Source: Candidatus Omnitrophota bacterium
GTDB taxonomy: Bacteria > Omnitrophota > Omnitrophia > Omnitrophales > Aquincolibacteriaceae
NCBI GenBank assembly: GCA_035368605.1
Contig: DAOSLF010000008.1
Coordinates: 1,964-65,963 of the forward strand
Direction of reading: 5' to 3'
DNA: 64,000 nucleotides
Shown here: positions 35,830 through 60,810 of the stretch, piece after piece
Position numbering within the stretch: position 1 is the first letter of the stretch
How the letters are laid out: every line of letters starts with the position of its first letter
Program-made: the position numbers and the translations under genes
The notes under the pieces: model-generated
Database searches by the model: none
The model's input: the letters and a program-made list of their open reading frames with translations, nothing else
Told to the model about the DNA's origin: nothing

Positions 35830-36327
35830 TTATTCCGGCATCTTGCGATACCACCCGTCCAAGGGCTCCGAGTCGCAGGCCCCGGAAGGGAGATCATAGA
35901 CATTGCCGCGGCGGTCGGGGGTTCCCGCCGGCACCAGACACACTGTCCGGACACTCCGCTTGTCCGAAGCCGCGATCACCGTTGCGGGCACGTCCTTGTT
36001 ATATGAAATATCCGCGTTCCTCGCGGGGAAGGTATAGGTCTTTTCGAACTGGTCGCGGTCGTAACAACCGTTCCCGATGATTGCCTCCCCGATCACCCCT
36101 TCCGAGTCGAGATGGCCCCACTTCGTTCCGGCGGGAAGGACACCTCCGTGCTCCTGGACGTAGATACGCAGGCAGTAGGACATGGCGCGCAACCCGGCGA
36201 TCGCGCTATCCGCCCGCTTCTGATCGGCGCCTTTCCGGAAATTCGGGAGCGCGAGCGAAGCCCCGATGGCAATGATGATGACCACCACGATCAGCTCCAG
36301 AAGTGTCAAACCGTTCTTACGCGTCAT
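35830..36327 (-). CDS. prepilin-type N-terminal cleavage/methylation domain protein (GspH/PilE-like pseudopilin)
   Basis: MTRKNG|LTLLELIVVVIIIAIGASLALPNF class III signal with Glu5. 165 aa. Last gene of minor pseudopilin module 1. Confidence 0.7.
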   Translation of the reverse strand: MTRKNGLTLLELIVVVIIIAIGASLALPNFRKGADQKRADSAIAGLRAMSYCLRIYVQEHGGVLPAGTKWGHLDSEGVIGEAIIGNGCYDRDQFEKTYTFPARNADISYNKDVPATVIAASDKRSVRTVCLVPAGTPDRRGNVYDLPSGACDSEPLDGWYRKMPE

Positions 36328-39300
36328 ATCCTGTTCCTTTCACCGGTTCCTCCCGGAAATCCCTTCGGACAATCGAAAAAAGCAACATGCCCGACTTATA
36401 CGGCAAAGGCGGCGGGTTAGTCCTTAGTTTATCATTGAAAGAGTAGTCCCGGACCGGTGCGGTGTAGTACGGAGCCTCTGGCGCCGCGGCTCTGCTCCAG
36501 TAATAATATGTGGTCCCAAAAAAAGCCGGCGTTCCGTCGGAGCGCTTCATCTCTTCAGAATCCCATCCTGAGACAAGGCTTCCCCGAAAATGGAGCGTCG
36601 CCCTAGTGTCATCCGCGGGAGAATTGGGTGTTCCCTTCGTGTCATACCATAACTCCTGGAAATTGATCAGATTTTCCAGCCCGCCGCTGTACTTGGCTTC
36701 CCAAAGAGGCCCCTGAGCTTTCCATGTGTAACGGAGCTTCGGGAAATACGGAAAATAGTTCTGATCACGATCGGGGCAAAGTCCACTTCCAAGCCAGGAA
36801 GGGGACTCCTCGTTATCCGTCGTGGCAGGATCATCCACTGTCCAGTCGGGAAACTTCGTTAATAAATCCCGGTTGTTGTTTTTATCCGGATTAACATTGT
36901 CATATTTTGCACCGCAAATGCAATGGGAGGTCCGCGCGGACGTTTCCGTCTTCCACTCAGAAACCGAAATCCATCTGCAGGCGGGGACAGTTTTTTCTTC
37001 CGTAGGCGGATCACAGACGTACACGGAAGACGGGGTTTGCGCCGTTTGTTTGTACGACTCGATCCAGTTTTTTACGCAAGCATACTGAAGCGGAGCATCA
37101 ACCTCTCCATACCCCTTCCGGATTCTCCGGAACGTGACCCCGGGATATCCCATACTCGGGAACGGGAGTTCACCGCCGTCGCGTTTGTAGATAATGTATC
37201 CATCATCCACTCCCGCCGCAGTGCTGTTGTCCCGCACAGCTTCCGTAATCGGAATCTTTAGAGGATCCGTGGCTTTAAAATAATCCTGGGGCAGCCGGTA
37301 GGTGTTGACATTTTGAGTACCGGGGATCGGCGGATCAGTGCGACTGGGCGTTGCAGGATAAGGCACAGACGCCGAACTTCTCCGATAATATTCTCTGACA
37401 AGATTATAAGGAACCGTGGTCTTGTCGAGATAGTATTGAAACGTGCTTCCCGCAGCCTCCATGATGGTATTATTACTCTTAAGCCTTTGAACGAGCTCTG
37501 AATCCGGATTAAGGTAGCCGATACCATTCTCGTCATAAACGGAAGCAGGAACCCCCGGTGATTCATAGAAATTAAACTGATCGTCCCCAAAATAAAGGCA
37601 TGGAGTACGGTCAGGCTGTGATTCAACGGGTTCCGTCTTAAGGTCACAGGAGGGCATACTCCAGATCGCGGGTTTCAGCGGTTTCACCAGCTGGCTCGGG
37701 AGATGCCCGGTCACGACCGCCGCGTTCAGGATCGTGTCGGACGCGACACGCGACTCCAGCGTTTGGGCAGCTGTTTCATTATCGGAATTCCAGCTGTTGG
37801 ACAAGACACCAAAACTGTCACTGTAAAGATCGGCCGGCGGCACGTTGCGTTCGTTAGTGGCGCAGGCGCCTGATTTGAGTTCCTCCGCCGAGCAAGCATC
37901 CGTTAAGAGAACACCGTCGGCGTCATAAGGGTAAATGTTGTAATCCCCCTGAACCCAAAGGCGCCCATTCGTTACCACAGAAAGCCCGGATAGCGGAAGT
38001 TCCGCTCCGCCACTGACCTTGACAAGAAGAGGTCCCGCGCTTTCAGCGATCACAGGATAAGCCGGGACTGTCTGAACGTAGATCACAGGTTTGTCGGTTG
38101 AAAAATCCAGCCCGTAACGCTGCCGCATCCTGTTCAGAAAAGTTTTTACGTTGATCTCGATCAACCTGGCGGAACGGCGCAATCGATAGTCGTAAAAATT
38201 TTCTTTCAGATAAACGCCGTTCGCTTCGCTCCCGTCCAACAGCCCACTTGAAAATCCGAGCGAAGAGACCGTGGTCGCACCCGCCTTGTGGATGAACAGC
38301 TTGTAGGTCCTGCAGTCCGCATCGACACACCTGAAGACCAGGCTGGCACAGGTTTGGTATTTATACCGCCGAATCCGCTGGTCCTGCGGGTCATCGCTGT
38401 CGCCATCCCGGTCTTCATCGCCGTTAAGAGCAAGCGGCTCGATCAGCTTGTGAGGAGCCAGGTCTTTCCCCCCCACAGGGAGCGCGTGGCGCGTGACACC
38501 ATGAGAGGGATGGTCCGCGATCATCGCGCTGCGGAGATCCGACTTCTTCGGGAACCCCGTCCAGAAAGGGTTGACCATGGGCGCGGTAGAAACGGGGTTC
38601 GACGCTTCCCATCCCGGCAACAGTTTTCGGGCCTCTGCCCTGGAAGGCCCAATAGCAGCAGAAACGCTCAAGTCATTTCCAACCCCTGACTTGTAAGATT
38701 CGGCGTAGGGAACTTTGGAAGGGAAATCGCAGCTCGCTTCAGTCTTTCGGATCGGCGTGGAGGGAACGGCCGACGAAAGCAACACGTACGGCTTCGTTTC
38801 ACCTGGCTTCACAACCAAGATCGTATGGGCGGTGGCCCCGCCATACTGGACTGAGTTCCGGAACGTGTAAACGAACGGGGGAGCTTCGTCAGCATCATAT
38901 CCGAGAAATCTTTTCGCCGCGGGCTCCCCGTAAACCTCGACCCCTTTCGTCCCCTCAACATAAAAAGGGTGGGACGATTCATCGGTCTTGTAAAAATCCG
39001 GAACCGCCGCGCGGTATTTGTTGTTTTTGAGGAAATAATTCTCCGCAAGCGCAGTCTTGAAATAGAAGTAAATGTTGCCTGCGCTCCGGAGCGCGTAATA
39101 TTCGGTATTGGTGGAATCGTCCGGAGGCATCCTGAGCGTCAGCCTACTTCCGCTGCCGGTCATCAAGTAAACGTTCCCGTTCGAAAAAATCGGCCCCTGG
39201 AGTTCCCAATCCGGGCCCGCCGCGATCTCAAGGTCCGTGTTGTAAAAGACCGCATAATCAAAAAGCCGGCCGGTCCGCACTTGAATCTTCTGGGAATATT

Positions 39301-39808
39301 CCACGGACGTCCGGGTCAACGGATGGTGAAGCCGGATTCGAACCTCATAAAGGCGCTGATTTTCCGAGACCTGGGTCGCCGGATCCACCAGGACCTTGAG
39401 ACTTTGAACCTGAATATGCTGAAGCCCATCGAACCGGTAGTTGCCTCCCTTTTGGGGCTTCAGGAACGGCGAGTCGAACCACGTTTCAAGATTCTTCTGG
39501 AAAAGGACCTTCGACCCTTCCGATTCCTCGTAGACGACCAAGTCTCCCGAAGCGTCCGCCTCTGCGGAAGGGAAGCCGTTGGCCCGGACATAGTCGTTGA
39601 ATACTTTAAAGGTTCGATCGATCACAGCTTCGGCCGCCCACGCAAGCCTGATGCGGTCAGCCGTCCGCTGAATAGTCCGCTGCTGCATCCCCAGGCTTAT
39701 AAAATTCCCCGCGAGTACCAGCGAAATGGCAATCACCAGAAAAAACATCAAGATGATCGCGAACCCCTTCTGATTGTTCCTCATAATCCTTTCATTCCAG
39801 TTCGGCAT
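36317..39808 (-). CDS. giant GspK/PilX-like minor (tip) pseudopilin, paralog 1 (1163 aa)
   Basis: N-terminus QKGFAIILMFFLVIAISLVLAG...RTADRIRLAWAAEAVID is PilX_N/GspK-like (prepilin-like helix lacking Glu5). Shares conserved blocks with the two other giants (FDYAVFYNTDLEIAAGPDWELQGPIFSNGNVYLM, YYALRSAGNIYFYFK, FGVLSNSWN, YSGGLENLINFQE, C-terminal LRTNPPPLP...FRE). Contains DEDRDGDSD. Confidence 0.6.
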   Translation of the reverse strand: MPNWNERIMRNNQKGFAIILMFFLVIAISLVLAGNFISLGMQQRTIQRTADRIRLAWAAEAVIDRTFKVFNDYVRANGFPSAEADASGDLVVYEESEGSKVLFQKNLETWFDSPFLKPQKGGNYRFDGLQHIQVQSLKVLVDPATQVSENQRLYEVRIRLHHPLTRTSVEYSQKIQVRTGRLFDYAVFYNTDLEIAAGPDWELQGPIFSNGNVYLMTGSGSRLTLRMPPDDSTNTEYYALRSAGNIYFYFKTALAENYFLKNNKYRAAVPDFYKTDESSHPFYVEGTKGVEVYGEPAAKRFLGYDADEAPPFVYTFRNSVQYGGATAHTILVVKPGETKPYVLLSSAVPSTPIRKTEASCDFPSKVPYAESYKSGVGNDLSVSAAIGPSRAEARKLLPGWEASNPVSTAPMVNPFWTGFPKKSDLRSAMIADHPSHGVTRHALPVGGKDLAPHKLIEPLALNGDEDRDGDSDDPQDQRIRRYKYQTCASLVFRCVDADCRTYKLFIHKAGATTVSSLGFSSGLLDGSEANGVYLKENFYDYRLRRSARLIEINVKTFLNRMRQRYGLDFSTDKPVIYVQTVPAYPVIAESAGPLLVKVSGGAELPLSGLSVVTNGRLWVQGDYNIYPYDADGVLLTDACSAEELKSGACATNERNVPPADLYSDSFGVLSNSWNSDNETAAQTLESRVASDTILNAAVVTGHLPSQLVKPLKPAIWSMPSCDLKTEPVESQPDRTPCLYFGDDQFNFYESPGVPASVYDENGIGYLNPDSELVQRLKSNNTIMEAAGSTFQYYLDKTTVPYNLVREYYRRSSASVPYPATPSRTDPPIPGTQNVNTYRLPQDYFKATDPLKIPITEAVRDNSTAAGVDDGYIIYKRDGGELPFPSMGYPGVTFRRIRKGYGEVDAPLQYACVKNWIESYKQTAQTPSSVYVCDPPTEEKTVPACRWISVSEWKTETSARTSHCICGAKYDNVNPDKNNNRDLLTKFPDWTVDDPATTDNEESPSWLGSGLCPDRDQNYFPYFPKLRYTWKAQGPLWEAKYSGGLENLINFQELWYDTKGTPNSPADDTRATLHFRGSLVSGWDSEEMKRSDGTPAFFGTTYYYWSRAAAPEAPYYTAPVRDYSFNDKLRTNPPPLPYKSGMLLFSIVRRDFREEPVKGTGYDA

Positions 39809-40553
39809 GCAAAAAAACCGTTTTGGTGATCCCCGCTGTTTTCAGATCTTTTTTTGCGCCAAGCGCCGTCCCGACCGAGCCCCGGGCGCTGAGGCTGACG
39901 GAAACTGTTTTCTTCCCTGGGTCTGTCTTGAAGACGGGATAGACACCTTTGTCTTCGCAAAGATTTTTGGGCAACTCCGCAGCGGTGACACAGGCGTCTC
40001 TAAGACTTTCTTCGTTGTCCATTCCGGCAACCGTCACAGTCCCGTCATTATCCAGATCCGCATCAGCATACGGCGCGAACATCCCGGGGGTTGAAAGCTC
40101 GGTCTCGGTCCATAGACGACCAGCGGCCTCAGCAGCTCCAACCGTGTACACTCTGCGGACCAGCTTCGCCTCGGGAGGCACTCCCGACGCAAGCAGATAT
40201 CCGTACCAGACTTCCTTCGCGCCGGTTCCCGAACCAACCAGCGTACCCATCCAGATCTCTCCCTGTTTATCTTCGGAACGATAGTAGAAAGGACCCTGCA
40301 CCGGACTGTCCGCCGGAATCTCCGTGCCATCGGGATAATGGCTCAAAAACCCTTTCCGGACCCCACCCTGCAACTGCAGCTCAAAATCTCGGAAGATTGC
40401 CAGCAGCTCATTCTGCATCCTGGCACCCTGATCCTGGGCGACCTTGGACCCCGTGACCGAAAGATGCAAGGTGCTCATCGCGAACAACACGCTGCCCAGA
40501 ATGCAAACTGCGATGATAAGCTCCATCAAAGAGAGGCCGTGCGGTTCTTTCAT
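39792..40553 (-). CDS. GspJ/PilW-like minor pseudopilin
   Basis: MKEPHG|LSLMELIIAVCILGSVLFA prepilin signal. 253 aa. Paralog of 50742..51458 (shared VWYGYLLASG / VWYGYKFASG, KGVYPVFK). Confidence 0.65.
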   Translation of the reverse strand: MKEPHGLSLMELIIAVCILGSVLFAMSTLHLSVTGSKVAQDQGARMQNELLAIFRDFELQLQGGVRKGFLSHYPDGTEIPADSPVQGPFYYRSEDKQGEIWMGTLVGSGTGAKEVWYGYLLASGVPPEAKLVRRVYTVGAAEAAGRLWTETELSTPGMFAPYADADLDNDGTVTVAGMDNEESLRDACVTAAELPKNLCEDKGVYPVFKTDPGKKTVSVSLSARGSVGTALGAKKDLKTAGITKTVFLHAELE

Positions 40554-40556
40554 AGA

Positions 40557-40988
40557 TCACCCTGCATAAAAGACCGTGGTAACAGTCTCCTGTTTGTCAC
40601 ATTGAACACAAGGCTTGTTCTCGCCTTCTTTCCACGGATAATCCCACCCGATGCGGATAGTCACTTGCTTGAGGTCGGGATCGGATTCAAGAATCTCCAC
40701 CGTCCGGGTCATCGCGCCATGTTTGAGCTCACGAACCTCCGCGACCGCGCTGGTCCCGGGCTGAAGGCTCCGACCGTTGTCTTTCTTGGCCTCCGCGAGC
40801 ATCTTGTCGATCAAATGGACCGCGACCATTTTTTGCTGCATCGCGGCCGCGGCCCGGCTGACATGGCCCGTCACTCCGAGAACACCGGTGGCAACCACAG
40901 TGATCGCTGTAATGGCTACGAGAATCTCAAGCAGGGAGAACCCGCCCATCCCTTTCGAGTCACTTTGGGCCATTTCATCAGCCTTCAT
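40557..40988 (-). CDS. GspI/PilV-like minor pseudopilin
   Basis: ...SKGMG|GFSLLEILVAITAITVVATGVLG prepilin signal. 143 aa. Paralog of 51462..51917 (shared IGWDYPW motif). Confidence 0.65.
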   Translation of the reverse strand: MKADEMAQSDSKGMGGFSLLEILVAITAITVVATGVLGVTGHVSRAAAAMQQKMVAVHLIDKMLAEAKKDNGRSLQPGTSAVAEVRELKHGAMTRTVEILESDPDLKQVTIRIGWDYPWKEGENKPCVQCDKQETVTTVFYAG

Positions 40989-41044
40989 TTTCTGTTTCCT
41001 TTCGTTCCCGTCATTCTAGAACTCTGCGTCCCGAATTCAAGAGT

Positions 41045-41704
41045 TTATAGATCACACGGATTCCGGGCCGCCGTAAAACGGCGCCCTGAAAAACAGGACG
41101 GCGCCGAAACCAGCAAAAGGGCGCCCTGGCGCTGCAAGGGATTTCCGAACGATACATCCATGCCCCCGGAAAAGAAGAGGTTATCCCCTTCCTTCAGCGT
41201 CACGCCCCTGCCATCCACTTTTCCTTCGAAGCGCCCGCTCAGCGTCTGGAGGAAAACCGCGCCCGTACCGTTCAGGATACTGCCGTCAAACGACTTCCCC
41301 GGATCGACAAGCACCTTCCCGCAAAACAGCTCATCGATGGACGGCGAGAAGGCGATGAACTCGACCCCTTTCGAGGGGAAAGCAATGCGATAAAGCCCTT
41401 TCGGCGTCCCTTGGGAAAAACATTCCGGCAACGAGACTTCCGCCCTCCGGAAGATCCCGCTCACGGCCACCCCGAGCCCTTTCGCGATCATCTCGAGCGT
41501 GGCAATCGAAGGATTCCTGATCCTCCCTTTTTCAACCGCGGTCAGGGTCCTGGGATCGAGCCCGTTCGAACGACGACAGAGTTCCACGCCGCTGAGACCG
41601 CGCTCCTTCCGGAGCTCCAGCACCGACCGGCCCAGGTTGATCCCCGTTCGCCGGGGCTCACCCGACCGACCACCGGTTTTTGTCTGAGGGTTTTTCCGTT
41701 TCAT
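41045..41704 (-). CDS. XRE-family HTH transcriptional regulator with C-terminal cupin domain
   Basis: Start at internal Met 41704 with GGAGG RBS; the upstream 86 codons of the track ORF overlap the neighbouring gene's 3' end and look spurious. HTH_3 segment LGRSVLELRKERGLSGVELCRRSNGLDPRTLTAVEKGR. C-terminal cupin beta-strands. Confidence 0.7.
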   Translation of the reverse strand: MKRKNPQTKTGGRSGEPRRTGINLGRSVLELRKERGLSGVELCRRSNGLDPRTLTAVEKGRIRNPSIATLEMIAKGLGVAVSGIFRRAEVSLPECFSQGTPKGLYRIAFPSKGVEFIAFSPSIDELFCGKVLVDPGKSFDGSILNGTGAVFLQTLSGRFEGKVDGRGVTLKEGDNLFFSGGMDVSFGNPLQRQGALLLVSAPSCFSGRRFTAARNPCDL

Positions 41705-41747
41705 CGTCTTCCCTCCTCTTGCCGTACCCGCCCGCAGGCCGATACGG

Positions 41748-43691: not shown

Positions 43692-43725
43692 TGTTCCTTT
43701 CATAAAGAAAACAAGGTTGTGAACG

Positions 43726-46700
43726 TTATACCGCGCTCTCGTCTCTGATACCAAGGGGCTCGCCGCTACGCGGGTCCAGTTCCCTGAAGGTTTTCCGCGT
43801 CAGCGCGTAAACGGACGGCGTTCCCGGCGGCGGACTGGTCCTGAGAGTTTCATTATAAAAAGCCTTCCGGGCCGGCGCGCAATAATAGGCGGGTTTCCAA
43901 AAAGCGGGCCGCACTGTTTCCGAAGTGTCCTCCGGGAAAACGGTCGTTGAGATCCGGAGTTCTCTGGCATGCCAAGGAGCCGTCTGGACCCCGTAAAACC
44001 GGATCGTCTGCTGCCAGTCGACAACCTCCTTCTCGTTCACCAGTGAAATCTTTCCCCATTGTTCCTGGTAATTGATCAGGTTTTCAAGCCCTCCGCTGTA
44101 CCGGGCGACATAAAGCGGAACGTAGCGCCCGTGATAATATCTGATCCCTGAAGGCTCATAGCGTAACGATGGACCTGCTCCGCCCGTACAGGTGTAGGTA
44201 CATACCGGAGCCTCCGTTTCGCTGCCTCCCGTGCAAATGTTTTTACACACATAATCAGGCGTTGTCGAGATATAGTTAAGAGAAGGACCCGTGAGCCAAT
44301 CCGGCATAATCACATTGAAGTAAACACCACCCGTCAGCGGCACTCCCCTGACTTCGCACTCCGGCGGAACGGGCTGATAGGTCCGCCATTCCCAATCCCT
44401 TCCCGGACATCGCATCATGCTGTCGGTATTGACAGGGATATCCCGGTCAGGAAGCACATTCCCCGAAAAAACCACGTTCCGGTAACTTACGGCAGCGGAA
44501 CTGAACCCCGTATCGGCCGGATGGCATATCCTGTTCGTGGAAAAATCGCAGCGCCCGTCCGTGTTTTTTTTATCGCAACAGACAAGACTCCACTCGTTGG
44601 CGTCATTCTTTCTCGCAACCGGAATGGTATAAGCCACGCGAAATCCCCTGAGAATCTCCTTCTCGTCCGGGGTCAGCTGATCCCAGCGGGTAACGGTCCT
44701 CGTGACAATGATATTGTGCAAAAGTTTCTGGAGGGCCGTGCCATCAGGATCGGGCAGCGGCGGCGCCGAATCATCGGGGGAACTCCAGGCGAGTCCCCAG
44801 GGGCTTCCGGCGCCCCACCGGTCCTTTTGCGCGGTGTAGGACTGCTCCTTTTCCGGGGCCGAGAGACCCCTGACGCCGTTCGTGTTGTAATAGGTCCCGT
44901 CGTATTCCTTCCAGGCCGTGTTGTAGATCCGCTTGAAAAGCATCAGCGTCGGAACATAAAAAATACCCGTCGCCGTATCCTTCCGCAATTCACAATCAGA
45001 CCAATCAACCGGGTTCCCGGACGCGTCCAGCCCCGCCGGGCAGCGGGCACCGGAAACGGCAGGAACATGGCTCGCCCCTGTTTGGGAATACCAGCCGCTG
45101 GCATCAGGCGGCAGATCTTTCACGAAGGACCGCCGCGCCCACTGGAAACATTCTTCCGGATGATCCGCATCGCACCTCGGGAACGTTTCTTCAAGCTGGG
45201 AAGGCACAAACCCCGTCACGACGGCGGTATTGACCATCGAGGATCCGGCAACGGGCCGTTTGTCTAAAGATGTCGCCCCGCCGTAAGAATCCTTCCAGCT
45301 GTTCGAAAGTATCCCGAAACTGTCGCTGAAAACCGCAGCCGGCGGAAAAACACAGGCGCGTTGGTCCCAATCCCCGGCGGAGCAGGTCCCTCCGGAGCGG
45401 GTTCCGTTCGGGTATTCGTAGGTGTTATAGTCCCCCTGGATCCAGAGACGCCCGTTCGTCACGACCGTGAGTCCCTTCGACAAAAGCTTTCCGCCGTTCG
45501 TCAGCCTGACAAGCGCCACCTTGTTTTCTCCGCTGGCCTCATAGGGACCTTCCGGAACACCGACGTACACAAGACACCCTGTGCCGCTGGTATCGCATTC
45601 AAACCCCGACAACACGGTATTCAGATTCGCAACATCGATCGTCACTGTGGGGAATTCCCCGCCCATCCGGTAATCGTAGAGCATGCCGATCGACGCAAAG
45701 GCACCGGCCGCAATCGCGCTACCCGCCCGGTCCGTGGCGGCAATGGGTTCGGTGTCTGTCGTGCAACTCAGCCGGAGATCCGCCATGGAGGCCAGCTTCT
45801 GTTTTCTGACCTCAACCTTTTCACCCTCGACCAACGGATCGATCAGGGTGTGAATTCCGTTCGGGGCGTTCGGATCCCCGACGGGGATGGCTCTTGACGT
45901 CACGCCCTCAACCGTATCCGCGACATACATTCCCGTCGGATCGGAAGCCGGAGCCCCCCAACGGTTGTTCAACACCTCTTTCTGGCTACCTTCCCCCGGA
46001 TTTTCAGACTTGGGATCGGCAGCCGTCCAGCCCGCAAGCCGCTTCGGCGGTTGCAGTCCCACCGGATCATAAACCGGCGTCGCATTCATAAAATCTCCGG
46101 CTTTTCCGTAATTCCCTGCGTCCAAATAGTAGGACGCGGCGGCGTCAGGCGGCCACAAAGGATATTGATTCAGAAAGTAATGGTGACTCAGGAACTTGAG
46201 GGGGATGTCATCTTTACCCGGGATCTGAAGAACGATATGCGGCTCATCATACAAAAAACTGGAGAACCGGATCTCGTTCCGCGGATAGTAGAACATTGGC
46301 ATGGCCTTTTCGCGGGTTCTGAACGCGTACGGTTCGAGTTCCATGCTGTCGAGTCCGTCAATGCCTCCGTAGCGGGACATCCTCTCGGCATCATCGGTCC
46401 GCAGGTAATCCGGCGCTCCGTTCACATAGGCTTCGTTCCGGTACCGACCATCTTTCTTGTCCAGAAAATAGTTCCGGGCCAGAAACCGCTTGAAGTAGAA
46501 ATAAATATGGCCCGCGCTCCGGAGCGCATAATAATTCTCCGGATCTTCGCCGATATTCGAGGGAAGGGAAAGCCGCAGTTGACTGCTCGGCCCGGTCATG
46601 AGGTAGATGTTCGCGTTGGAGAAAACAGGCCCCTGGAGATCATAATCGGTGCCCGAAGCGATCTCGAGGTCCGTGTTGTAAAAGGTGCTGTAATCAAAAA

Positions 46701-47235
46701 GTTTCCCGGCGGAAACCCGGACAACCTGGCTAAAGAAACTCGCGGAACCCGTATTGGGATTCGTCAACATGACGCGAATTTCATACTCGCGATAAGCGTC
46801 CGTCGGATTCGACATGGATGAGGAACTTTTGATCTGTCTCACGGACAGCGCAGACTGATCAAGCTGGACTATGACCGAGGGAAAGGGCCATTTGAAATCA
46901 TCGGCAAGACCGCTGAACCATGCCGCGATCTCCGAGGTGAACAAGGGCCCCTCCGTCTGCCCGGGCATGCTGTTCCGGACTTCAAGCGTATCGGCGTCAT
47001 AGTCCGGATACTGGGCGTTCGTTTCGACAAAATCCGAGAACTTTGCGAAAGTGTAATCAATCACGGCCTCCGCGGCCCAGTAAAGACGGATGCGGTCGAT
47101 CGTCCGCTGCGTCGTCAGCTGTTGCTGGCCAAGGCTCAGAAAACTCCCCGTCATGACCGCCACCATCGCGATCACGAGCGCGAGCGTCATGATCATGACA
47201 AAACCTTTTTGTTGTCTTCCACGCCAGTCCATCAT
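43726..47235 (-). CDS. giant GspK/PilX-like minor (tip) pseudopilin, paralog 2 (1169 aa)
   Basis: N-terminus QKGFVMIMTLALVIAMVAVMTGSFLSLGQQQLTTQRTIDRIRLYWAAEAVID. Conserved blocks shared with paralogs 1 and 3 (FDYSTFYNTDLEIASGTDYDLQGPVFSNANIYLM, YYALRSAGHIYFYFK, FGILSNSWK, YSGGLENLINYQE, C-terminal LRTSPPP...FRELDP). Confidence 0.6.
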   Translation of the reverse strand: MMDWRGRQQKGFVMIMTLALVIAMVAVMTGSFLSLGQQQLTTQRTIDRIRLYWAAEAVIDYTFAKFSDFVETNAQYPDYDADTLEVRNSMPGQTEGPLFTSEIAAWFSGLADDFKWPFPSVIVQLDQSALSVRQIKSSSSMSNPTDAYREYEIRVMLTNPNTGSASFFSQVVRVSAGKLFDYSTFYNTDLEIASGTDYDLQGPVFSNANIYLMTGPSSQLRLSLPSNIGEDPENYYALRSAGHIYFYFKRFLARNYFLDKKDGRYRNEAYVNGAPDYLRTDDAERMSRYGGIDGLDSMELEPYAFRTREKAMPMFYYPRNEIRFSSFLYDEPHIVLQIPGKDDIPLKFLSHHYFLNQYPLWPPDAAASYYLDAGNYGKAGDFMNATPVYDPVGLQPPKRLAGWTAADPKSENPGEGSQKEVLNNRWGAPASDPTGMYVADTVEGVTSRAIPVGDPNAPNGIHTLIDPLVEGEKVEVRKQKLASMADLRLSCTTDTEPIAATDRAGSAIAAGAFASIGMLYDYRMGGEFPTVTIDVANLNTVLSGFECDTSGTGCLVYVGVPEGPYEASGENKVALVRLTNGGKLLSKGLTVVTNGRLWIQGDYNTYEYPNGTRSGGTCSAGDWDQRACVFPPAAVFSDSFGILSNSWKDSYGGATSLDKRPVAGSSMVNTAVVTGFVPSQLEETFPRCDADHPEECFQWARRSFVKDLPPDASGWYSQTGASHVPAVSGARCPAGLDASGNPVDWSDCELRKDTATGIFYVPTLMLFKRIYNTAWKEYDGTYYNTNGVRGLSAPEKEQSYTAQKDRWGAGSPWGLAWSSPDDSAPPLPDPDGTALQKLLHNIIVTRTVTRWDQLTPDEKEILRGFRVAYTIPVARKNDANEWSLVCCDKKNTDGRCDFSTNRICHPADTGFSSAAVSYRNVVFSGNVLPDRDIPVNTDSMMRCPGRDWEWRTYQPVPPECEVRGVPLTGGVYFNVIMPDWLTGPSLNYISTTPDYVCKNICTGGSETEAPVCTYTCTGGAGPSLRYEPSGIRYYHGRYVPLYVARYSGGLENLINYQEQWGKISLVNEKEVVDWQQTIRFYGVQTAPWHARELRISTTVFPEDTSETVRPAFWKPAYYCAPARKAFYNETLRTSPPPGTPSVYALTRKTFRELDPRSGEPLGIRDESAV
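47056..47211. repeat. 156-bp direct repeat copy A (5' end of giant paralog 2)
   Basis: Positions 47056..47211 are identical to 50539..50694 except for one mismatch (gcgagcg versus gcaagcg). Encodes the PilX_N-like helix. Confidence 0.85.
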
Positions 47236-50200
47236 TTACGAAACGGTCTCCTCCTGAACCCCGTACGGCTTCCCCGTTTTCGGGTCCAGTTCCCTGAAGC
47301 GCTTGCGGCTGACCGAAAACAGGCTCATCCCGGAACTATCCGGAAGGGGGGGCGGATTAGCGCGAAGGTTTTCGTTAAAATCATAATCCCGGATGGGCGC
47401 AAGATAGTAAGTAGTCCCATAAAAAGCGGGCTCCCCGGTTGTTTTGACCAGCTGCTTCGAATCCCAAATCGCCACAATATTCCCTGAAAAATGAAGTGCA
47501 AACTTGAGATCATCCCTCACATCTTGTGTGCCTCTGTCGTCGTACCATGCTTCCTGAAGATTGATCGTGTTCTCAAGACCGCCGCTGTAGCGCGGTTCCC
47601 AAAGGGCCCCATAAGCTCTCCACGCGTAGTATATTTTGGGATAAGACGAGAAATAGTTATCGGCTTCCTCAGGGCATATTCCCGACCCCAGAAAACCGGC
47701 TGGATTCGTCCAATCTTCAGGATGCCGGTCAAAATCCTGGGGCTCGCCCCCGGGGATGCCTGTCACATGCGGATTGCTTAGCGTCGCTTGGGGATTAGTG
47801 TATACATTCACGGCATCATCACATCGGCATTTCGCCTTCGTCTCCGTAAGACCGGTCCAGTGGGTCTGAGTGGTACAGGTATCCGGAACAACATCCCCCC
47901 CCGGTGTTGTCAGGCATGACTTGGACTGAACATAATAATTCTTAACTTCGCTGTTTTTGATGCACGTGTAATGAACCGGATAATCCGGGCCCGCAGATTT
48001 CCAAAGTTTTCTCCAGTAAACTCCGGGATAATTCGAACCTGCGAATGGCCGGTCGGGGCTTTCCTCCCAATAGAACCGTTGATCCCAAACAGGACCGTCA
48101 GAAACGGTGTCGGTTCCTCTTGTTTCCACAATAGGGAGGGGTTTTGGATCGACCGGATCAAAATATTCTTGCGGCATTCGATGAACGCTGACATCCAGAA
48201 CAGCACCTGGGTTTTCGACACGGGAAGTCTCCACATAATCGGCCGCCCCAAGCAATTTCGTCATGGCGATCGTGGTCGTAGAAACACTTTGAGGGGCAGG
48301 ATGATTGGTCGCCAGGAGAGCGTTAAACTGCGGGCTATTCACCATCATGTTATTTTTGGCTTTGAGCTCCTGGTAGTAATTTCCCGTCCGTTTGAGATTC
48401 CAGATCCCTCGAGAATCGCGCTCAATGTCCTCCCAATGAAAACCATCCGGCGAATAACAAATAGTGGGAGCCCCGTAAAGACACGGGATCGTGTCCGGAT
48501 CAGACGCGCATTGAGCGAGGTTTATAGGCTTCAGCGCAACTGCACCGGGCCTGGTCGCGCAGAGCTCGATCGTTTCGGGATTCGTGTCCCCGCCAGGCCA
48601 AGGCGTGGGCACCGCCTTCACAAGCTGGCTCCGCAGAAAACCCGTAATGACAGCGGCATTCAGGATCACATCTTCCTTCAGGACCCGTGTTCTGTCGGCA
48701 ATCAGCTTCGTTGTCGTATTAATCAGATTTCTTCCGGCGTCTTCAATGCCCATGTTCCAGTTATTGGATAACACTCCAAAACTATCGCTGTAAAGATCGG
48801 CGGAGGGTGGCCTGCATGACGAGTCGGGATTCGCAATATCGGCGAAGGCGCAGCGTTGCCCTGTTTCGGGGTCAGTCACATTATAATCCCCCAGGACCCA
48901 TAATCTCCCGTTCGTCACGACCGACAGCCCTGCCGCAGGCAGTTCCGCCCCGTTGCGGATCCGCACCGCCACCGGCGCCGGTTTCCCGTCTCTCCAGGTG
49001 TCGGGCGATTCCGTGCGGATGTATATTGAAGGGCGGTGCTCCGATGAAAAAGCGATCCCTTCCTCCGACGTAATAGCCCCGAGAAACCGGTGTACGTCTA
49101 TATCCAAAAGGCGCACAGCAGCCCCCAGACGATAATCGTAAAAAGTCCGGAACTCGAGTCCGGAGTTCGGCCAGTCAGCAATAACTCCCGTGGACAGATC
49201 TTTGGTCTTCCAAGAACCGCCGGCCGGATCTTTGATCTTTAGCTGATAACTTCCATCCTTGCAGGAACCGTCGGAATCATCCACCGAGCAGACAAAACGT
49301 ATATTGGCGTACGTTTCGAATTTGTACTTGGCTACCAGGGGAGATTCTCTCCCGTCAAGAGGTTCAATGAGGACATGTGTGTCTAACCGGCCGTCTCCCA
49401 AAGGAAGCGCTTTCCGGGTCACCCCCTGTTTGCGGTCAGCTATCCATAACCCGTGGCCCTCCCCCGGAAATCCGTTCCAGTAAGGATTCACGAAGGGCGG
49501 ATCAGAAACGGGATTTTCAGGCGTCCATTCCTTATGGAGTTTCCGGACACCTGAGCGATCTGACCGGTCAAAGGCCGTGGAAATACTGACCTTTTTATCG
49601 GGGGTGTAGTCCTTGGCATATCCCAGATAAGGAGCATTTCTCAATCTGTGATCGGTGAAGGTCATCGGCGTGGACGGTTTCGAGGCAGACAAAAAATCGA
49701 AGTATTCCGCGACCGCTCCGGTGATCTTCTTGACTTTAATGGTGTGGGACGAAATGCCGCCGTATTCCAATCCATTCGAAAAAGTGTACAGCAGCGGCGG
49801 AGCAGACGTATAGTTAAGGGTCGTCAAAAGGTGGGGCGAGGGATACACCTCGACTCCCCGGAAGGGAGCTCCGGAGCTATAATCGGCACTGTTAAGGGGG
49901 TGGGTCGCCAGGTCTGTCCTGTAGATGCTCTCCTGGACGGCATCCCTGTAGTAGCTGTTTTCCAGAAGATAATTAGGCGCGAGAGTGGTTTTGAAGTAGA
50001 AATAAATATTCCCCGCGCTTCGCAGCGCGTAATACTCGGGGTAACTCACATCATTCGGCATTTTAAACGTCAACGTGGTCCCCTTGCCGTTCATCAGGTA
50101 AACATTCCCGTTTGAAAAAACAGGACCCTGCAGTTCCCAATTGAGCCCGGGCGCGATCTCGAGGTCATCATTGTAAAAAACACCGAAATCAAAGAGCGTT

Positions 50201-50745
50201 CCGGTCCCGACGGAAATTGTCTGTAAATACTCCGACACCGACCCCGACAGCGGATTCGAAACCCGGACGCGGATCTCATAGATCCGTTTGTAAACATCGG
50301 TAAGCGTCGAAGAATCCGCTGTGACGGTCACATCATCCAGCGAGAGATGCTTCATAAAAACTTCATTTCCCCAGAGCGCCTTGAACGGACCGGAAAACCA
50401 TTCGGCAAGCCGTGTCTGGAACCGATCATTGACCCTGGAAACAACCGTCCCGGTATCATCATAAACAAGGCGCCCTGATTCTATAATCGGGGGAAATCCA
50501 TTGGCGCGGGTATAGAAGTAAAACATCCACTGACTCTTATCAATCACGGCCTCCGCGGCCCAGTAAAGACGGATGCGGTCGATCGTCCGCTGCGTCGTCA
50601 GCTGTTGCTGGCCAAGGCTCAGAAAACTCCCCGTCATGACCGCCACCATCGCGATCACGAGCGCAAGCGTCATGATCATGACAAAACCTTTTTGCCGTTT
50701 CATGATGTTCTCTCGCTGAATGTTTCCGCTCAGGGTCTCCCTCAA
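47236..50745 (-). CDS. giant GspK/PilX-like minor (tip) pseudopilin, paralog 3 (1169 aa)
   Basis: N-terminus identical to paralog 2 over about 52 aa. Conserved blocks FDFGVFYNDDLEIAPGLNWELQGPVFSNGNVYLM, YYALRSAGNIYFYFK, FGVLSNNWN, YSGGLENTINLQE, C-terminal LRANPPPLP...FRELDP. Abuts paralog 2 with no intergenic gap. Confidence 0.6.
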   Translation of the reverse strand: MRETLSGNIQRENIMKRQKGFVMIMTLALVIAMVAVMTGSFLSLGQQQLTTQRTIDRIRLYWAAEAVIDKSQWMFYFYTRANGFPPIIESGRLVYDDTGTVVSRVNDRFQTRLAEWFSGPFKALWGNEVFMKHLSLDDVTVTADSSTLTDVYKRIYEIRVRVSNPLSGSVSEYLQTISVGTGTLFDFGVFYNDDLEIAPGLNWELQGPVFSNGNVYLMNGKGTTLTFKMPNDVSYPEYYALRSAGNIYFYFKTTLAPNYLLENSYYRDAVQESIYRTDLATHPLNSADYSSGAPFRGVEVYPSPHLLTTLNYTSAPPLLYTFSNGLEYGGISSHTIKVKKITGAVAEYFDFLSASKPSTPMTFTDHRLRNAPYLGYAKDYTPDKKVSISTAFDRSDRSGVRKLHKEWTPENPVSDPPFVNPYWNGFPGEGHGLWIADRKQGVTRKALPLGDGRLDTHVLIEPLDGRESPLVAKYKFETYANIRFVCSVDDSDGSCKDGSYQLKIKDPAGGSWKTKDLSTGVIADWPNSGLEFRTFYDYRLGAAVRLLDIDVHRFLGAITSEEGIAFSSEHRPSIYIRTESPDTWRDGKPAPVAVRIRNGAELPAAGLSVVTNGRLWVLGDYNVTDPETGQRCAFADIANPDSSCRPPSADLYSDSFGVLSNNWNMGIEDAGRNLINTTTKLIADRTRVLKEDVILNAAVITGFLRSQLVKAVPTPWPGGDTNPETIELCATRPGAVALKPINLAQCASDPDTIPCLYGAPTICYSPDGFHWEDIERDSRGIWNLKRTGNYYQELKAKNNMMVNSPQFNALLATNHPAPQSVSTTTIAMTKLLGAADYVETSRVENPGAVLDVSVHRMPQEYFDPVDPKPLPIVETRGTDTVSDGPVWDQRFYWEESPDRPFAGSNYPGVYWRKLWKSAGPDYPVHYTCIKNSEVKNYYVQSKSCLTTPGGDVVPDTCTTQTHWTGLTETKAKCRCDDAVNVYTNPQATLSNPHVTGIPGGEPQDFDRHPEDWTNPAGFLGSGICPEEADNYFSSYPKIYYAWRAYGALWEPRYSGGLENTINLQEAWYDDRGTQDVRDDLKFALHFSGNIVAIWDSKQLVKTTGEPAFYGTTYYLAPIRDYDFNENLRANPPPLPDSSGMSLFSVSRKRFRELDPKTGKPYGVQEETVS
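50539..50694. repeat. 156-bp direct repeat copy B (5' end of giant paralog 3)
   Basis: See copy A. Flanking sequence on both sides is diverged. Confidence 0.85.
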
Positions 50746-51458
50746 CCGGCACTTGAATGAAGACTGATCGCCCGTGTCGATCCGGGAGTTGAAGCGGGCT
50801 TCTTCCCGCCCAGCACCATCGAACTGGCTTTCAGGCTGATATAGACCAGTTTTTTATCACCCGAGATCTTGAAAACGGGATAGATTCCCTTATCTTCGCA
50901 ATTCGTTTTGGACTTGGCATCCTGAAGGCACAGGTCCCGTGTTTTCTTTTCGGCGTCATCGATGACCCCGTTCCCATCCGCATCCACTGAATCCGCATAA
51001 GGCATCAGCATCCCGGATGAGGAAAGCACCGTTTCGGTCCAGACCGGTTTGTCGGCACCCACGGTATAAACGCACCGCACAACCTTCGCCGGAGTGTTTC
51101 CGGAGGCGAATTTGTACCCGTACCAGACCTCAACAGCATCCGCGCCTTCGCCCACCACGATGCCAAGCCATAATCCCCCCGCCCCGCGGTAAAAGTAAGG
51201 GCTCGAGAGCGAATGACCCTTGGTGAAACCCGTGTCGACCGGCTGCGTGGTTAGCGTCCCGCCCACGATTCCGCCGCGAAGATAGACCTCCGCGTCACGA
51301 AAAATGAAGTCTATCTCGTTCTGCATCCTGGTGTCCGTCTGCGCGATCAGAGAAGTCCCCACCGTCGAAAGGTACAGCGAACTGCCGCCCAGGATCACCA
51401 CCCCCGTGATCACCAGCGCGAGTACCAGTTCCAGAAGCGTCAATCCCCGGTTTTTCAT
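50742..51458 (-). CDS. GspJ/PilW-like minor pseudopilin (module 2)
   Basis: MKNRG|LTLLELVLALVITGVVILGGSSLYL prepilin signal. 238 aa. Overlaps the giant paralog 3 start by 4 bp. Confidence 0.65.
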   Translation of the reverse strand: MKNRGLTLLELVLALVITGVVILGGSSLYLSTVGTSLIAQTDTRMQNEIDFIFRDAEVYLRGGIVGGTLTTQPVDTGFTKGHSLSSPYFYRGAGGLWLGIVVGEGADAVEVWYGYKFASGNTPAKVVRCVYTVGADKPVWTETVLSSSGMLMPYADSVDADGNGVIDDAEKKTRDLCLQDAKSKTNCEDKGIYPVFKISGDKKLVYISLKASSMVLGGKKPASTPGSTRAISLHSSAG

Positions 51459-51461: not shown

Positions 51462-51917
51462 TCACTCCTTGAAAAGAACGGTAACCATGGATTCCTGCTT
51501 GTCGCAGGCACGGCCATCTCCCGAAAGGGCGCAGGAGGTCGTCTGAATCGTCCACGGATAGTCCCAGCCGACCGTCACGCGCACTTCCTTGAGCTCCGTG
51601 GACGACGGTTCCGGATAGACCCCCGTCACGGACATCACGGCGTTCTTCAGCGTCTTGAGGACCTCAGCGTCCTTGATCTCGACCATTGTCACGGTCCCCG
51701 GCGCCACGGTCGCCGTGACCGTCTGGCCGTCCGAGGCCTTGATCTCCGCCAGCTTCCTGTCGATCAGCTGGGCCGCCGCGATCCGCTGTTGCATAAGCAT
51801 GGATGACCGCTTGGTATGGATCGTCGTCCCCAGGAAACCCGCCGCCATCACGCTGATGACCACGACCGCGATCACGACCTCGAGCATCGAAAAACCGCAC
51901 GCTTGCGCTTTTCTCAT
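51462..51917 (-). CDS. GspI/PilV-like minor pseudopilin (module 2)
   Basis: MRKAQACG|FSMLEVVIAVVVISVMAAGFLG prepilin signal. 151 aa. Confidence 0.65.
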   Translation of the reverse strand: MRKAQACGFSMLEVVIAVVVISVMAAGFLGTTIHTKRSSMLMQQRIAAAQLIDRKLAEIKASDGQTVTATVAPGTVTMVEIKDAEVLKTLKNAVMSVTGVYPEPSSTELKEVRVTVGWDYPWTIQTTSCALSGDGRACDKQESMVTVLFKE

Positions 51918-53262: not shown

Positions 53263-53273
53263 GTTAGCCCGGG

Positions 53274-53708: not shown

Positions 53709-53730
53709 AGCGGGCTCCCTTTCGTCCGAA

Positions 53731-54147: not shown

Positions 54148-54211
54148 ATCGCCTGTTTTTTTGAAACCAACAACCTAAAGTTAAAGCCAAAGGGAACAAC
54201 TGCGACCAAAA

Positions 54212-54243
54212 CAAAGGGGCAGTCTGCACGACTGCCCCTTTGA
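54212..54243 (-). terminator. rho-independent terminator after the first pilin gene
   Basis: Hairpin AGGGGCAGTC-tgcacg-ACTGCCCCT followed on the minus strand by ttgttttgg. Confidence 0.5.
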
Positions 54244-54252
54244 AAAGACCTG

Positions 54253-57775: not shown

Positions 57776-57826
57776 ATTCCTCCGTTCCGGCTTCCGGGAA
57801 CGCCGGTCACTTGCCTTGGCCTGTCT

Positions 57827-59728: not shown

Positions 59729-59778
59729 GATCCGTTCTCCCCTTTCTTGGGAAACAAGCTGTCAATATCCCGCGAGCG

Positions 59779-60794: not shown

Positions 60795-60810
60795 CGTCCC
60801 GTCCCCGCCT

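What the first reader, a model, noticed from the sequence alone, without database searches (positions are those of the whole stretch)
36317..50745. Three giant (~1165 aa) GspK/PilX-like tip-pseudopilin paralogs
Canonical GspK is about 330 aa and PilX about 200 aa. Here three paralogs each carry a PilX_N/GspK-type N-terminal helix with no Glu5 (QKGF[AV]...RIRL.WAAEAVID), followed by a C-terminal region of more than 1100 aa. That region has no motif I recognise. It does have conserved blocks shared by all three (FDY..FYN.DLEIA.G.D..LQGP.FSN.N.YLM, YYALRSAG.IYFYFK, FG.LSN.W, YSGGLEN.IN.QE, and a C-terminal LR.NPPPLP...FRELDP). Pairwise identity looks low, around 30-40%, outside these blocks, which suggests diversifying paralogs. 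Their position directly after GspI/GspJ-like genes suggests they form the filament tip. They may act as adhesin- or enzyme-bearing tip proteins, or as a PilX-PilY1-like fusion.
Basis: partly seen in the sequence, partly recalled or inferred. Interest (0 to 1): 0.85.

Follow-up and report, generated by a model that had tools for sequence, protein, structure and literature searches.

The report
Giant solenoid-bearing pilus tip pilins
Three ~1165-residue paralogs in a type IV pilus locus of an uncultured Omnitrophota bacterium are oversized members of a known kind of pilus tip (cap) subunit, a GspK/PilX-like pilin domain carrying a beta-solenoid as in ComZ and HpsA, enlarged by two lineage-specific insertions, one of them hypervariable and a plausible attachment module.

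Summary

- All three have a prepilin-type leader (G-1/F+1) and no Glu5.
- A and C directly follow a GspI-like and a GspJ-like gene. B follows C.
- No PilY1-type propeller or vWA domain was found, so a PilX-PilY1 fusion is not supported.

By sequence, the giants are an Omnitrophota-restricted offshoot of a large, mostly unannotated family of about 600-aa PilX_N/HpsA-like proteins (hhalign E 7e-64). They differ by two insertions, at about residues 229-412 and 706-1038 of A. The second is Cys-rich, hypervariable and was not modelled.

B and C share a 156-nt stretch (155/156 identical) that encodes the cleavage site and the alpha1 helix. This suggests gene conversion and shared docking partners.

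Best reading: alternative tip adhesin pilins. It is a new variant of a known kind, of moderate interest.

The parts
36317..39808 (-). Giant paralog A (1163 aa): tip pilin candidate of the ComZ/HpsA-like class
43726..47235 (-). Giant paralog B (1169 aa). It follows C with no spacer and has no I/J pair of its own.
   Evidence: It is 33% identical to A. Its Ins2 does not align with that of A or C.
47236..50745 (-). Giant paralog C (1169 aa from a TTG; the probable true start is the ATG at about 50703, MKRQKGF)
   Evidence: It is 44% identical to A. A near-identical copy lies in the independent assembly L001.
39578..39808 (-). A residues 1-77: short basic leader, G|F prepilin-type cleavage site without Glu5, and a long alpha1 helix
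   Evidence: Sequence. Helix 4-77 in the AF2 model. G-1 in 35 of 37 giants and +5 never Glu.
39254..39577 (-). A residues 78-185: beta-sheet of the GspK-like pilin domain (long strands 133-148, 151-162, 167-181)
38573..39124 (-). A residues 229-412: insertion 1. It is specific to the giants and holds the conserved YYALRSAGNIYFYFK block.
   Evidence: Local hmmsearch coverage of 88 short relatives drops to 0 here. hhalign shows a gap here.
37694..38572 (-). A residues 413-705: beta-solenoid core shared with the ~600-aa PilX_N/HpsA-like family (GRLW.QGDYN, SDSFG.LSN.W)
36695..37693 (-). A residues 706-1038: insertion 2, hypervariable and Cys-rich (8 of A's 14 Cys). Not modelled with confidence; fold unknown.
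   Evidence: Identity A-B 3-14% and A-C 15-36%. pLDDT mostly 30-45 over 711-1020 (reported <50 segments span 713-1022, with local exceptions up to about 73). Absent from short relatives. Cys counts.
44101..45186 (-). B residues ~684-1045: insertion 2 of B (14 of B's 20 Cys). It does not align with that of A or C.
47590..48615 (-). C residues ~711-1052: insertion 2 of C (10 of C's 14 Cys)
36320..36694 (-). A residues 1039-1163: conserved C-terminal core (YSGGLENLIN.QE.W ... PPP) ending in a 13-residue strand (1142-1154). That strand is inferred to return to the pilin sheet as in ComZ.
   Evidence: Shared with all 88 short relatives. pLDDT 80-95 in most of this region. The return to the pilin sheet is an inference; no coordinates were available.
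47056..47211 (-). B copy of the 156-nt repeat that encodes QKGF...AVID (cleavage site plus alpha1 helix)
   Evidence: 155/156 identical to the C copy. The same 1-nt difference is kept in assembly L001.
50539..50694 (-). C copy of the 156-nt repeat
51462..51917 (-). GspI/PilV-like minor pilin I1 (has Glu5), upstream of J1-C-B
   Evidence: N_methyl match. TIGR01707 gspI E 3.8e-4 and PilV E 5.9e-5, both below their cut-offs. 38% identical to I2.
50742..51458 (-). GspJ/PilW-like minor pilin J1 (has Glu5)
   Evidence: N_methyl match. 44% identical to J2.
40557..40988 (-). GspI-like minor pilin I2 (has Glu5), upstream of J2-A
   Evidence: TIGR01707 gspI E 9.5e-9, profile positions 1-96 of 101, 35.7 bits against a cut-off of 44.35.
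39792..40553 (-). GspJ-like minor pilin J2 (has Glu5). Its end overlaps the start of A.
35830..36327 (-). 165-aa pilin with Glu5 directly after A. Candidate GspH/FimU-type adaptor, judged by position only.
   Evidence: N_methyl match. N-terminal GspG/GspH hits. A pilin of 165-185 aa follows the giant in L002, L004, L011 and L013.
52837..54684 (-). Four pilin genes with the N_methyl motif (54253-54684, 53731-54147, 53274-53708, 52837-53307): candidate major or accessory pilins
54748..62334 (-). Assembly machinery: platform GspF/PilC (54748-56094), ATPase T2SSE+MshEN (56081-57775), secretin with STN + Secretin_N (57827-59728), PilO/GspM-like (60252-60794), PilM-PilN fusion (60811-62334)
   Evidence: The same gene order is seen in L001, L002 and L013.

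Best explanation
Each of the three genes encodes a tip (cap) minor pilin of a type IV pilus-like filament. It belongs to the same architectural class as ComZ of Thermus and HpsA/PilX of cyanobacteria.

Proposed mechanism:
1. The protein is made with a short basic leader. The leader is presumably cut by a prepilin peptidase after the conserved Gly (inferred; no peptidase gene lies in the window).
2. Its long hydrophobic alpha1 helix lacks Glu5, as expected for the first subunit, which has no subunit above it.
3. It bundles with the GspI-like and GspJ-like pilins encoded just upstream to form the priming complex (inferred from gene order and folds). The downstream 165-aa pilin may link this complex to the major pilin.
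4. The GspK-like pilin sheet is interrupted before its last strand by an ice-binding-protein-type beta-solenoid. The solenoid therefore sits on the filament tip and can cap or plug it.
5. The Omnitrophota proteins add two insertions. The second (about 330 aa, Cys-rich, hypervariable, different in each paralog) is proposed to be the ligand- or host-binding module.
6. The three paralogs would then give one pilus machine three alternative tips. A works with its own I2/J2 pair. C and B work with I1/J1. B and C carry an identical alpha1 helix, kept so by gene conversion, which would let both dock on the same partners.

Shown here: paralogy, the leader without Glu5, fold similarity, homology to the PilX_N/HpsA-like family, and synteny. 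Inferred: processing, tip location, complex formation, adhesin function, and alternative use of the three paralogs.
For: - **Paralogs and motifs:**
- **Leader:** G-1/F+1 and never Glu at +5 in 37 giants. The I-, J- and H-like neighbours all have Glu5.
- **Family:** the profile search finds 1032 cluster representatives at E<=1e-10. hhalign of the giants against the ~600-aa family gives probability 100%, E 6.9e-64. In the short family, PilX_N matches 15 of 75, HpsA 75 of 75 and GspK 15 of 75. In the giants, HpsA matches 27 of 37 and GspK 9 of 37.
- **Synteny:** the order I-like, J-like, giant, 165-185-aa pilin, downstream of PilMNO, secretin, ATPase, platform and pilins, recurs in several Omnitrophota contigs. 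Distant relatives P0154 and P0155 also follow 2-3 N_methyl genes.
- **Partners:** the I-like gene matches gspI. The J-like model matches XcpW, EpsJ and GspJ. I1/I2 are 38% and J1/J2 44% identical, close to the 44% between A and C, so the trio was duplicated as a unit.
- **Shared helix:** B and C share 155 of 156 nt over the alpha1 helix.
- **Insertion 2:** hypervariable and Cys-rich, with even Cys totals of 14, 20 and 14.
- **Literature:** ComZ is argued to be a tip pilin with the solenoid inserted before the last strand (PMC6561018). Cyanobacterial PilX/HpsA solenoids are proposed as tip plugs or adhesins (bioRxiv 10.64898/2026.02.12.705559). T4aP are common in Omnitrophota and proposed for host attachment (PMC10066038).
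Against: - The three window proteins give no direct hit to PilX_N, T2SSK or N_methyl, even at E<=1.
- The match to HpsA is local only: one 55-residue block, 27.6 bits against an equivalog cut-off of 400.
- There is no sequence-level link to ComZ.
- Foldseek support is weak (E 2e-3, probability 0.57).
- Insertion 2, about 28% of the protein, is unmodelled, so its role is a guess.
- The J-like model is of low confidence (pLDDT 51.8).
- No co-fold of the I/J/giant complex could be run.
- The return of the last strand to the pilin sheet could not be checked, because no coordinates were available.
- A 125-kDa cap has to pass through the secretin, and this was not examined.
- No PilT or prepilin peptidase gene lies in the window.
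- There are no expression or localisation data.
Confidence: 0.7

Rival explanations
1. Pseudopilus cap of a secretion system (a T2SS-like role). The giants stay periplasmic on a short pseudopilus. They act like GspK, as the piston tip that contacts the secretin and cargo such as the neighbouring secreted GH144 glucanase, rather than as surface adhesins.
For: GspK is the second-best fold match, and the I/J-like partners resemble T2SS pseudopilins. No PilT gene lies in the window. A signal-peptide-bearing Glycoamylase (GH144-type)+CBM9 gene lies inside or next to the locus in the window and in L002/L003, and probably in L013.
Against: The machinery looks T4aP-like: a PilM-PilN fusion, PilO, a secretin with STN plus a single Secretin_N, and four separate pilin genes. 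A 125-kDa cap with a hypervariable, Cys-rich module in three versions is hard to explain for a periplasmic piston. The closest architectural relatives (ComZ, HpsA/PilX) belong to extended pili (PMC6561018; bioRxiv 10.64898/2026.02.12.705559).
Confidence: 0.15
2. PilX-PilY1 fusion. The N-terminal pilin part is PilX-like, and the remaining ~1000 aa derive from a PilY1/PilC-type tip adhesin (vWA domain plus beta-propeller).
For: The total size (~1165 aa) equals that of PilY1. The gene order I-like, J-like, giant, pilin resembles pilV-pilW-pilX-pilY1-pilE with X and Y1 merged (established knowledge of the Pseudomonas fimU-pilVWXY1E operon). The function may well be analogous (tip plug or adhesin).
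Confidence: 0.04
3. Membrane-anchored beta-helix enzyme. The N-terminal helix is only a signal anchor, and the solenoid is a polysaccharide lyase or hydrolase acting on glycans, functionally tied to the neighbouring glucanase rather than to the filament.
Against: The best solenoid matches are non-enzymatic ice-binding and tapirin-type solenoids, not pectate-lyase-type helices. No catalytic family was hit. The conserved G|F site, the alpha1 helix, the GspK-like sheet, the strict position after I/J-like pilins and translationally coupled overlaps argue for a pilin.
Confidence: 0.06

Closest known systems
ComZ of Thermus thermophilus (PDB 6QVI), competence-pilus tip pilin
HpsA / cyanobacterial PilX-EPS subfamily (NCBIfam NF038301, IPR049774)
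   Same: This is the only curated family with a sequence hit. The block LFDY..FYN.DLEIA.G..LQGP.FSN matches HpsA profile positions 276-331 (E 5.5e-7). HpsA matches 27 of 37 giants and 75 of 75 short relatives. These are very large PilX-type pilins with an extended solenoid plus undefined extra domains, encoded beside pseudopilins and proposed as tip plug or adhesin (bioRxiv 10.64898/2026.02.12.705559).
   Different: The score is 27.6 bits against an equivalog cut-off of 400, so the giants are not HpsA orthologs. HpsA is cyanobacterial and linked to hormogonium polysaccharide secretion and motility. The extra domains are not shown to be homologous to Ins1 or Ins2. According to the preprint, gene order in cyanobacteria places PilX first.
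GspK / XcpX (T2SS tip pseudopilin) and PilX (T4aP core minor pilin)
   Different: The three window proteins do not hit the GspK, T2SSK or PilX_N models. GspK carries an alpha-helical domain inserted between beta3 and beta4, not a beta-solenoid (PMC6561018). The giants are 3.5 to 6 times larger.
The ~550-700-aa PilX_N-bearing solenoid family (unannotated; Verrucomicrobiota, Nitrospirota and others; includes Verru_Chthon cassette protein A-like members)
   Same: These are true sequence homologs over three blocks (A residues 5-228, 415-705 and 1039-1155; hhalign E 6.9e-64). They share the leader, the AEA helix motif, and the DLEI.PG, GDYN and YSGG.EN motifs.
   Different: They lack Ins1 and Ins2. 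The giants form a tight clade of about 40 cluster representatives, and every taxonomically named member is Candidatus Omnitrophota.
PilY1 / PilC tip-associated adhesins
   Same: Similar size (~1160 aa), and a possible functional analogy as tip plug, adhesin or sensor riding on the minor-pilin complex.
   Different: PilY1 is not a pilin and has vWA and beta-propeller domains. Neither was detected here.

Membership tests
GspK/PilX-class tip (cap) minor pilin | Prepilin-type leader with Gly at -1 and a hydrophobic alpha1 helix | tested here: met
   QKG|F followed by about 25 hydrophobic residues in A, B and C. G-1 in 35 of 37 giants. Helix 4-77 in the model.
GspK/PilX-class tip (cap) minor pilin | Absence of Glu5 | tested here: met
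   Position +5 is L or M in the window proteins and is never E in 37 relatives. The neighbouring I/J/H-like pilins have E5.
GspK/PilX-class tip (cap) minor pilin | Match to the curated sequence models (Pfam PilX_N PF14341, T2SSK; NCBIfam T2SS_GspK) | tested here: not met
   No hit for A, B or C at E<=1. PilX_N matches 0 of 37 giants. Indirect support only: GspK matches 9 of 37 giants, and PilX_N matches 15 of 75 short homologs.
GspK/PilX-class tip (cap) minor pilin | Pilin-fold globular domain resembling GspK | tested here: met
   [not shown]
GspK/PilX-class tip (cap) minor pilin | Encoded with GspI/PilV-like and GspJ/PilW-like partners | tested here: met
   [not shown]
GspK/PilX-class tip (cap) minor pilin | Forms a heterotrimeric tip complex and locates at the filament tip | not testable with these tools
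   No multimer prediction or experiment was available.
ComZ-type solenoid pilin architecture | Large triangular (ice-binding-protein-like) beta-solenoid joined to the pilin domain | tested here: met
   [not shown]
ComZ-type solenoid pilin architecture | Solenoid inserted between the penultimate and the last beta-strand of the pilin sheet | tested here: inconclusive
   The model ends with a confident 13-residue strand (1142-1154), of the length seen in pilin-sheet strands. No coordinates could be inspected.
HpsA (NF038301 equivalog) | Full-length match above the curated cut-off (400 bits) | tested here: not met
   27.6, 22.1 and 16.9 bits, with one 40-58-residue stretch each.
PilY1/PilC tip adhesin | C-terminal PilY1-type beta-propeller and/or N-terminal vWA domain | tested here: not met
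   [not shown]

The most novel reading that the evidence does not exclude
The three paralogs form a swappable host- or prey-recognition tip system of an ultra-small, possibly parasitic Omnitrophota cell. A conserved pilin-plus-solenoid chassis displays a hypervariable, disulfide-rich ~330-aa receptor-binding module (insertion 2) of a fold not yet described. Gene conversion of the 156-nt alpha1 cassette keeps different heads compatible with one I/J base, much as phage tail-fibre tips are exchanged.
Probability: 0.25. Interest if true: 0.7.

Novelty: new variant of a known kind. Interest (0 to 1): 0.42.

Why it matters
Omnitrophota are uncultured, mostly ultra-small bacteria suspected of depending on hosts. 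Type IV pili are their main predicted attachment device (PMC10066038), but what the pili bind with is unknown. These genes give concrete candidates for the pilus tip. They have a defined conserved chassis and a defined variable module that could be expressed and tested for binding.

More generally, the results show that the ComZ/HpsA-type 'pilin plus solenoid' tip design reaches well beyond Thermus and cyanobacteria. It extends to a family with more than 1000 50%-identity cluster representatives whose solenoid core matches no Pfam family. The results also show that the design tolerates large insertions.

The identical alpha1 cassette in B and C is a simple, testable example of how paralogous tips may stay compatible with one priming complex.

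Tried and rejected
- Pfam on the three proteins gave nothing at E<=1. Pfam on 37 giants gave only scattered single hits (EF-hand, dockerin) in one member each.
- PDB sequence searches with the I-like and J-like profiles matched only N-terminal pilin helices.
- A second word-index protein search with the 37-sequence alignment returned almost nothing new because of the candidate cap. The third search, on the J-like pilin, gave only four proteins.
- Foldseek against afdb50 was unavailable. Foldseek against the PDB was weak apart from ComZ.
The permitted 5-sequence alignment gave a low-confidence J model.
- The PilX-PilY1 fusion and a beta-helix enzyme were considered and rejected, as detailed under the rival explanations.
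- An assembly artefact as the cause of the identical B/C stretch was rejected, because an independent assembly keeps both copies with the same 1-nt difference.
- No inverted repeats that would suggest an invertible switch were found in 35000-53000.
- Tandem paralogs in other genomes (L004, L006) do not share an identical alpha1 helix (52-62% identity there), so homogenisation is not a general rule.

Full report
**1. The observation**

They are paralogs. MAFFT gives 33% (A-B) and 44% (A-C) identity, with 56% mean column identity. After a short basic leader each protein has QKG|F and then about 25 hydrophobic residues. Position +5 after the Gly is Leu or Met, not Glu.

The genes are real. Close and distant homologs exist in metagenomes, with conserved gene order.

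**2. The surroundings**

The three genes sit in one minus-strand cluster. Read in the direction of transcription, it contains:
- a PilM-PilN fusion (60811-62334);
- a PilO/GspM-like gene (60252-60794);
- a secretin with STN, Secretin_N and Secretin domains (57827-59728);
- a T2SSE ATPase with an MshEN domain (56081-57775);
- a GspF/PilC platform protein (54748-56094);
- four pilin genes with the N_methyl motif (52837-54684);
- a response-regulator gene;
- a GspI/PilV-like pilin (I1, 51462-51917), a 238-aa pilin (J1, 50742-51458), then C and B;
- a Glycoamylase (GH144-type)+CBM9 gene and an HTH gene;
- a second GspI-like pilin (I2, 40557-40988), a 253-aa pilin (J2, 39792-40553), then A;
- a 165-aa pilin (35830-36327);
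- an outer-membrane factor and RND efflux genes.

All of these neighbouring pilins have Glu5. Only the giants lack it. I1/I2 are 38% and J1/J2 44% identical, about the same as A and C, so an I-J-giant trio was duplicated as a unit. B is an extra tandem copy behind C.

**3. Relatives**

A word-index search of 5.8 billion proteins found only nine clusters. The one named hit is from Candidatus Omnitrophica. A scan of one genome per GTDB species found seven loci, and every record that names a taxon is a Candidatus Omnitrophota MAG.

In those contigs the order is the same: machinery, pilins, I-like, J-like, giant, then a 165-185-aa pilin. Genes often overlap at their ends. There is one giant (L002, L011, L012, L013) or two in tandem (L004, L006).

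The exhaustive profile search gave 1872 cluster representatives at E<=1e-3 and 1032 at E<=1e-10. About 40 are full-length giants (900-1330 aa). Beyond them lies a far larger set of 550-700-aa proteins that match in three or four stretches.

A profile-profile comparison of the giants with 75 of these shorter proteins gives probability 100% and E 6.9e-64. In the residue numbering of A, the shared core is 5-228, 415-705 and 1039-1155, and these three pieces are contiguous in the short proteins. The giants therefore differ by two insertions, Ins1 (229-412) and Ins2 (706-1038).

The short family ties the whole group to known pilins:
- Pfam PilX_N matches 15 of 75 (best E 1.6e-12).
- NCBIfam T2SS_GspK matches 15 of 75, and EPS_HpsA matches 75 of 75 in several stretches (best E 1.5e-27). 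A few also hit Verru_Chthon cassette protein A and tapirin.
- Among the 37 giants, HpsA matches 27 and GspK the N-terminus of 9, but PilX_N matches none.
- The three window proteins themselves hit only HpsA, through one 40-58-residue block (E 5.5e-7 to 9.5e-4; 17-28 bits against a cut-off of 400).

Named short members come from Verrucomicrobiota MAGs ('hypothetical protein') and from Thermodesulfovibrionales ('pilus assembly PilX N-terminal domain-containing protein'). More distant relatives (P0154, P0155) also follow two or three N_methyl pilin genes.

**4. Structure**

AlphaFold2 on A with the 37-sequence alignment gave pTM 0.75 and mean pLDDT 68.6. The model contains:
- a helix at 4-77;
- long antiparallel strands at 133-181;
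- many short strands from 187 to about 712, mostly at high confidence;
- a low-confidence stretch at 713-1022;
- a confident C-terminal part that ends in a 13-residue strand at 1142-1154.

- then PilX, XcpX, other pilins and tapirins.

The only Foldseek hit close to significance is again ComZ, though it is weak (E 2e-3). No PilY1/PilC, propeller or vWA structure appears.

This is the architecture described for ComZ: a GspK-like pilin domain with an ice-binding-protein-like solenoid inserted before the last strand, too bulky to fit anywhere but the tip (PMC6561018). It has also been described for cyanobacterial PilX proteins, whose expanded subfamily is HpsA-like and is proposed to replace PilY1 as tip plug or adhesin (bioRxiv 10.64898/2026.02.12.705559). 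I could not inspect coordinates, so the return of the last strand to the pilin sheet is inferred from its length and from the ComZ match.

**5. What distinguishes the giants**

Ins2 is the variable part. In 60-column windows, A-B identity there is 3-14% and A-C 15-36%, against 40-65% in the core blocks. Ins2 holds most of the cysteines: 8 of 14 in A, 14 of 20 in B and 10 of 14 in C. The totals are even, as expected for an extracytoplasmic disulfide-bonded module. Its fold is unknown (pLDDT mostly 30-45).

B and C share a 156-nt stretch that is 155/156 identical (47056-47211 and 50539-50694). It encodes exactly QKGF...AVID, that is the cleavage site and the alpha1 helix. The A copy is 67% identical there, and the other conserved DNA blocks are 72-85% identical.

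An independent assembly of the same organism (L001, 99.93% identical over 13.6 kb) keeps both copies with the same single difference, so this is not an assembly artefact. Identity at synonymous sites points to recent gene conversion. Tandem paralogs in two other genomes are only 52-62% identical in this region.

**6. Mechanism proposed**

Shown here:
- The giants carry a prepilin-type leader without Glu5.
- They have a GspK-like pilin domain and a ComZ/ice-binding-protein-type solenoid.
- They are homologous to PilX_N/HpsA-like proteins.
- They are encoded immediately after GspI-like and GspJ-like pilins inside a T4aP-like machinery locus.

Inferred:
- After cleavage by a prepilin peptidase, the giant forms the priming complex with the I- and J-like pilins through their alpha1 helices, and so ends up at the filament tip.
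- The solenoid caps the tip.
- Ins2 is the binding surface.
- The three paralogs are alternative tips. B and C use the same I1/J1 base because their alpha1 helices are identical.

T4aP are common in Omnitrophota and have been proposed to mediate host attachment (PMC10066038), so a role in attachment to cells or glycans is the most likely one. My confidence is about 0.7 for 'tip pilin of the ComZ/HpsA class' and about 0.5 for the adhesin role.

**7. Rivals**

- A T2SS-like periplasmic cap that serves secretion, for example of the conserved GH144 neighbour, is possible (0.15). It fits poorly with the PilMNO-type machinery and with a hypervariable head.
- A PilX-PilY1 fusion is not supported (0.04).
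- A membrane-anchored beta-helix enzyme is unlikely (0.06).

**8. Novelty**

The kind is known: solenoid-bearing PilX/GspK-like tip pilins, as in ComZ, HpsA and cyanobacterial PilX. The family membership is by homology to an unannotated but very large PilX_N/HpsA-like family. The following are new:
- an Omnitrophota-restricted clade of about double size with two defined insertions, one hypervariable and Cys-rich;
- three copies in one locus;
- the gene-converted alpha1 cassette.

I rate it a new variant of a known kind, of moderate interest (0.42).

Noticed in passing
window 47056-47211 and 50539-50694 (minus strand): A 156-nt direct repeat, 155/156 identical, encodes the cleavage site plus alpha1 helix of B and C. 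The rest of the two genes is only about 27-35% identical at the protein level. The same 1-nt difference is kept in the independent assembly L001, whose contig ends inside the repeat. This looks like recent gene conversion. Recombination between the two copies would delete the body of C.
   Followed up: yes
window ~52423-52430, within 52006-52742 (minus strand): The response-regulator gene between the pilin genes and I1 is split into two overlapping ORFs (196 and 130 aa) by a 1-nt deletion in an A run (A7 here, A8 in L001, where the ORF is an intact 245 aa). This is the only indel in 13.6 kb of 99.93% identity. It could be a sequencing error, a pseudogene or a slippage-type switch.
   Followed up: partly
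window 41748-43754 (minus strand); L002 15378-17372; L003 15591-17372: A signal-peptide-bearing Glycoamylase (PF10091, GH144-type)+CBM9 gene, followed by an HTH regulator and OEP/MFP/RND efflux genes, stays next to the pilus locus in several Omnitrophota contigs. In the window it lies between the two I-J-giant sets. A functional link (secreted cargo, or a glycan ligand) was not tested.
   Followed up: partly
[not shown]
   Followed up: no
family level: More than 1000 50%-identity cluster representatives (E<=1e-10) belong to the ~600-aa PilX_N/HpsA-like solenoid family. No Pfam family matched the solenoid core in the 75 short members scanned, and most database names are 'hypothetical protein'. 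A domain model for the DLEI.PG / GDYN / YSGG.EN core would annotate many minor-pilin operons.
   Followed up: partly
window 41045-41962 (minus strand): The mechanical ORF for the HTH_3 regulator is 305 aa, but the homolog in L002/L003 is 188 aa and the HTH lies at residues 110-167. The real start is probably internal, so the upstream ~90 codons are likely non-coding.
   Followed up: no
window 4286-6448 (minus strand) and 56081-57775: A response-regulator-PAS-GGDEF-EAL protein is encoded in the window, and the pilus ATPase carries an MshEN (c-di-GMP-binding type) N-terminal domain. This hints at c-di-GMP control of pilus assembly.
   Followed up: no
L004 2-7910; L006 10001-15356: Other Omnitrophota contigs carry two tandem giants (1310+1305 aa; 1037+ at least 682 aa). 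Multiplication of the tip gene is therefore recurrent in the clade and not peculiar to this genome.
   Followed up: partly
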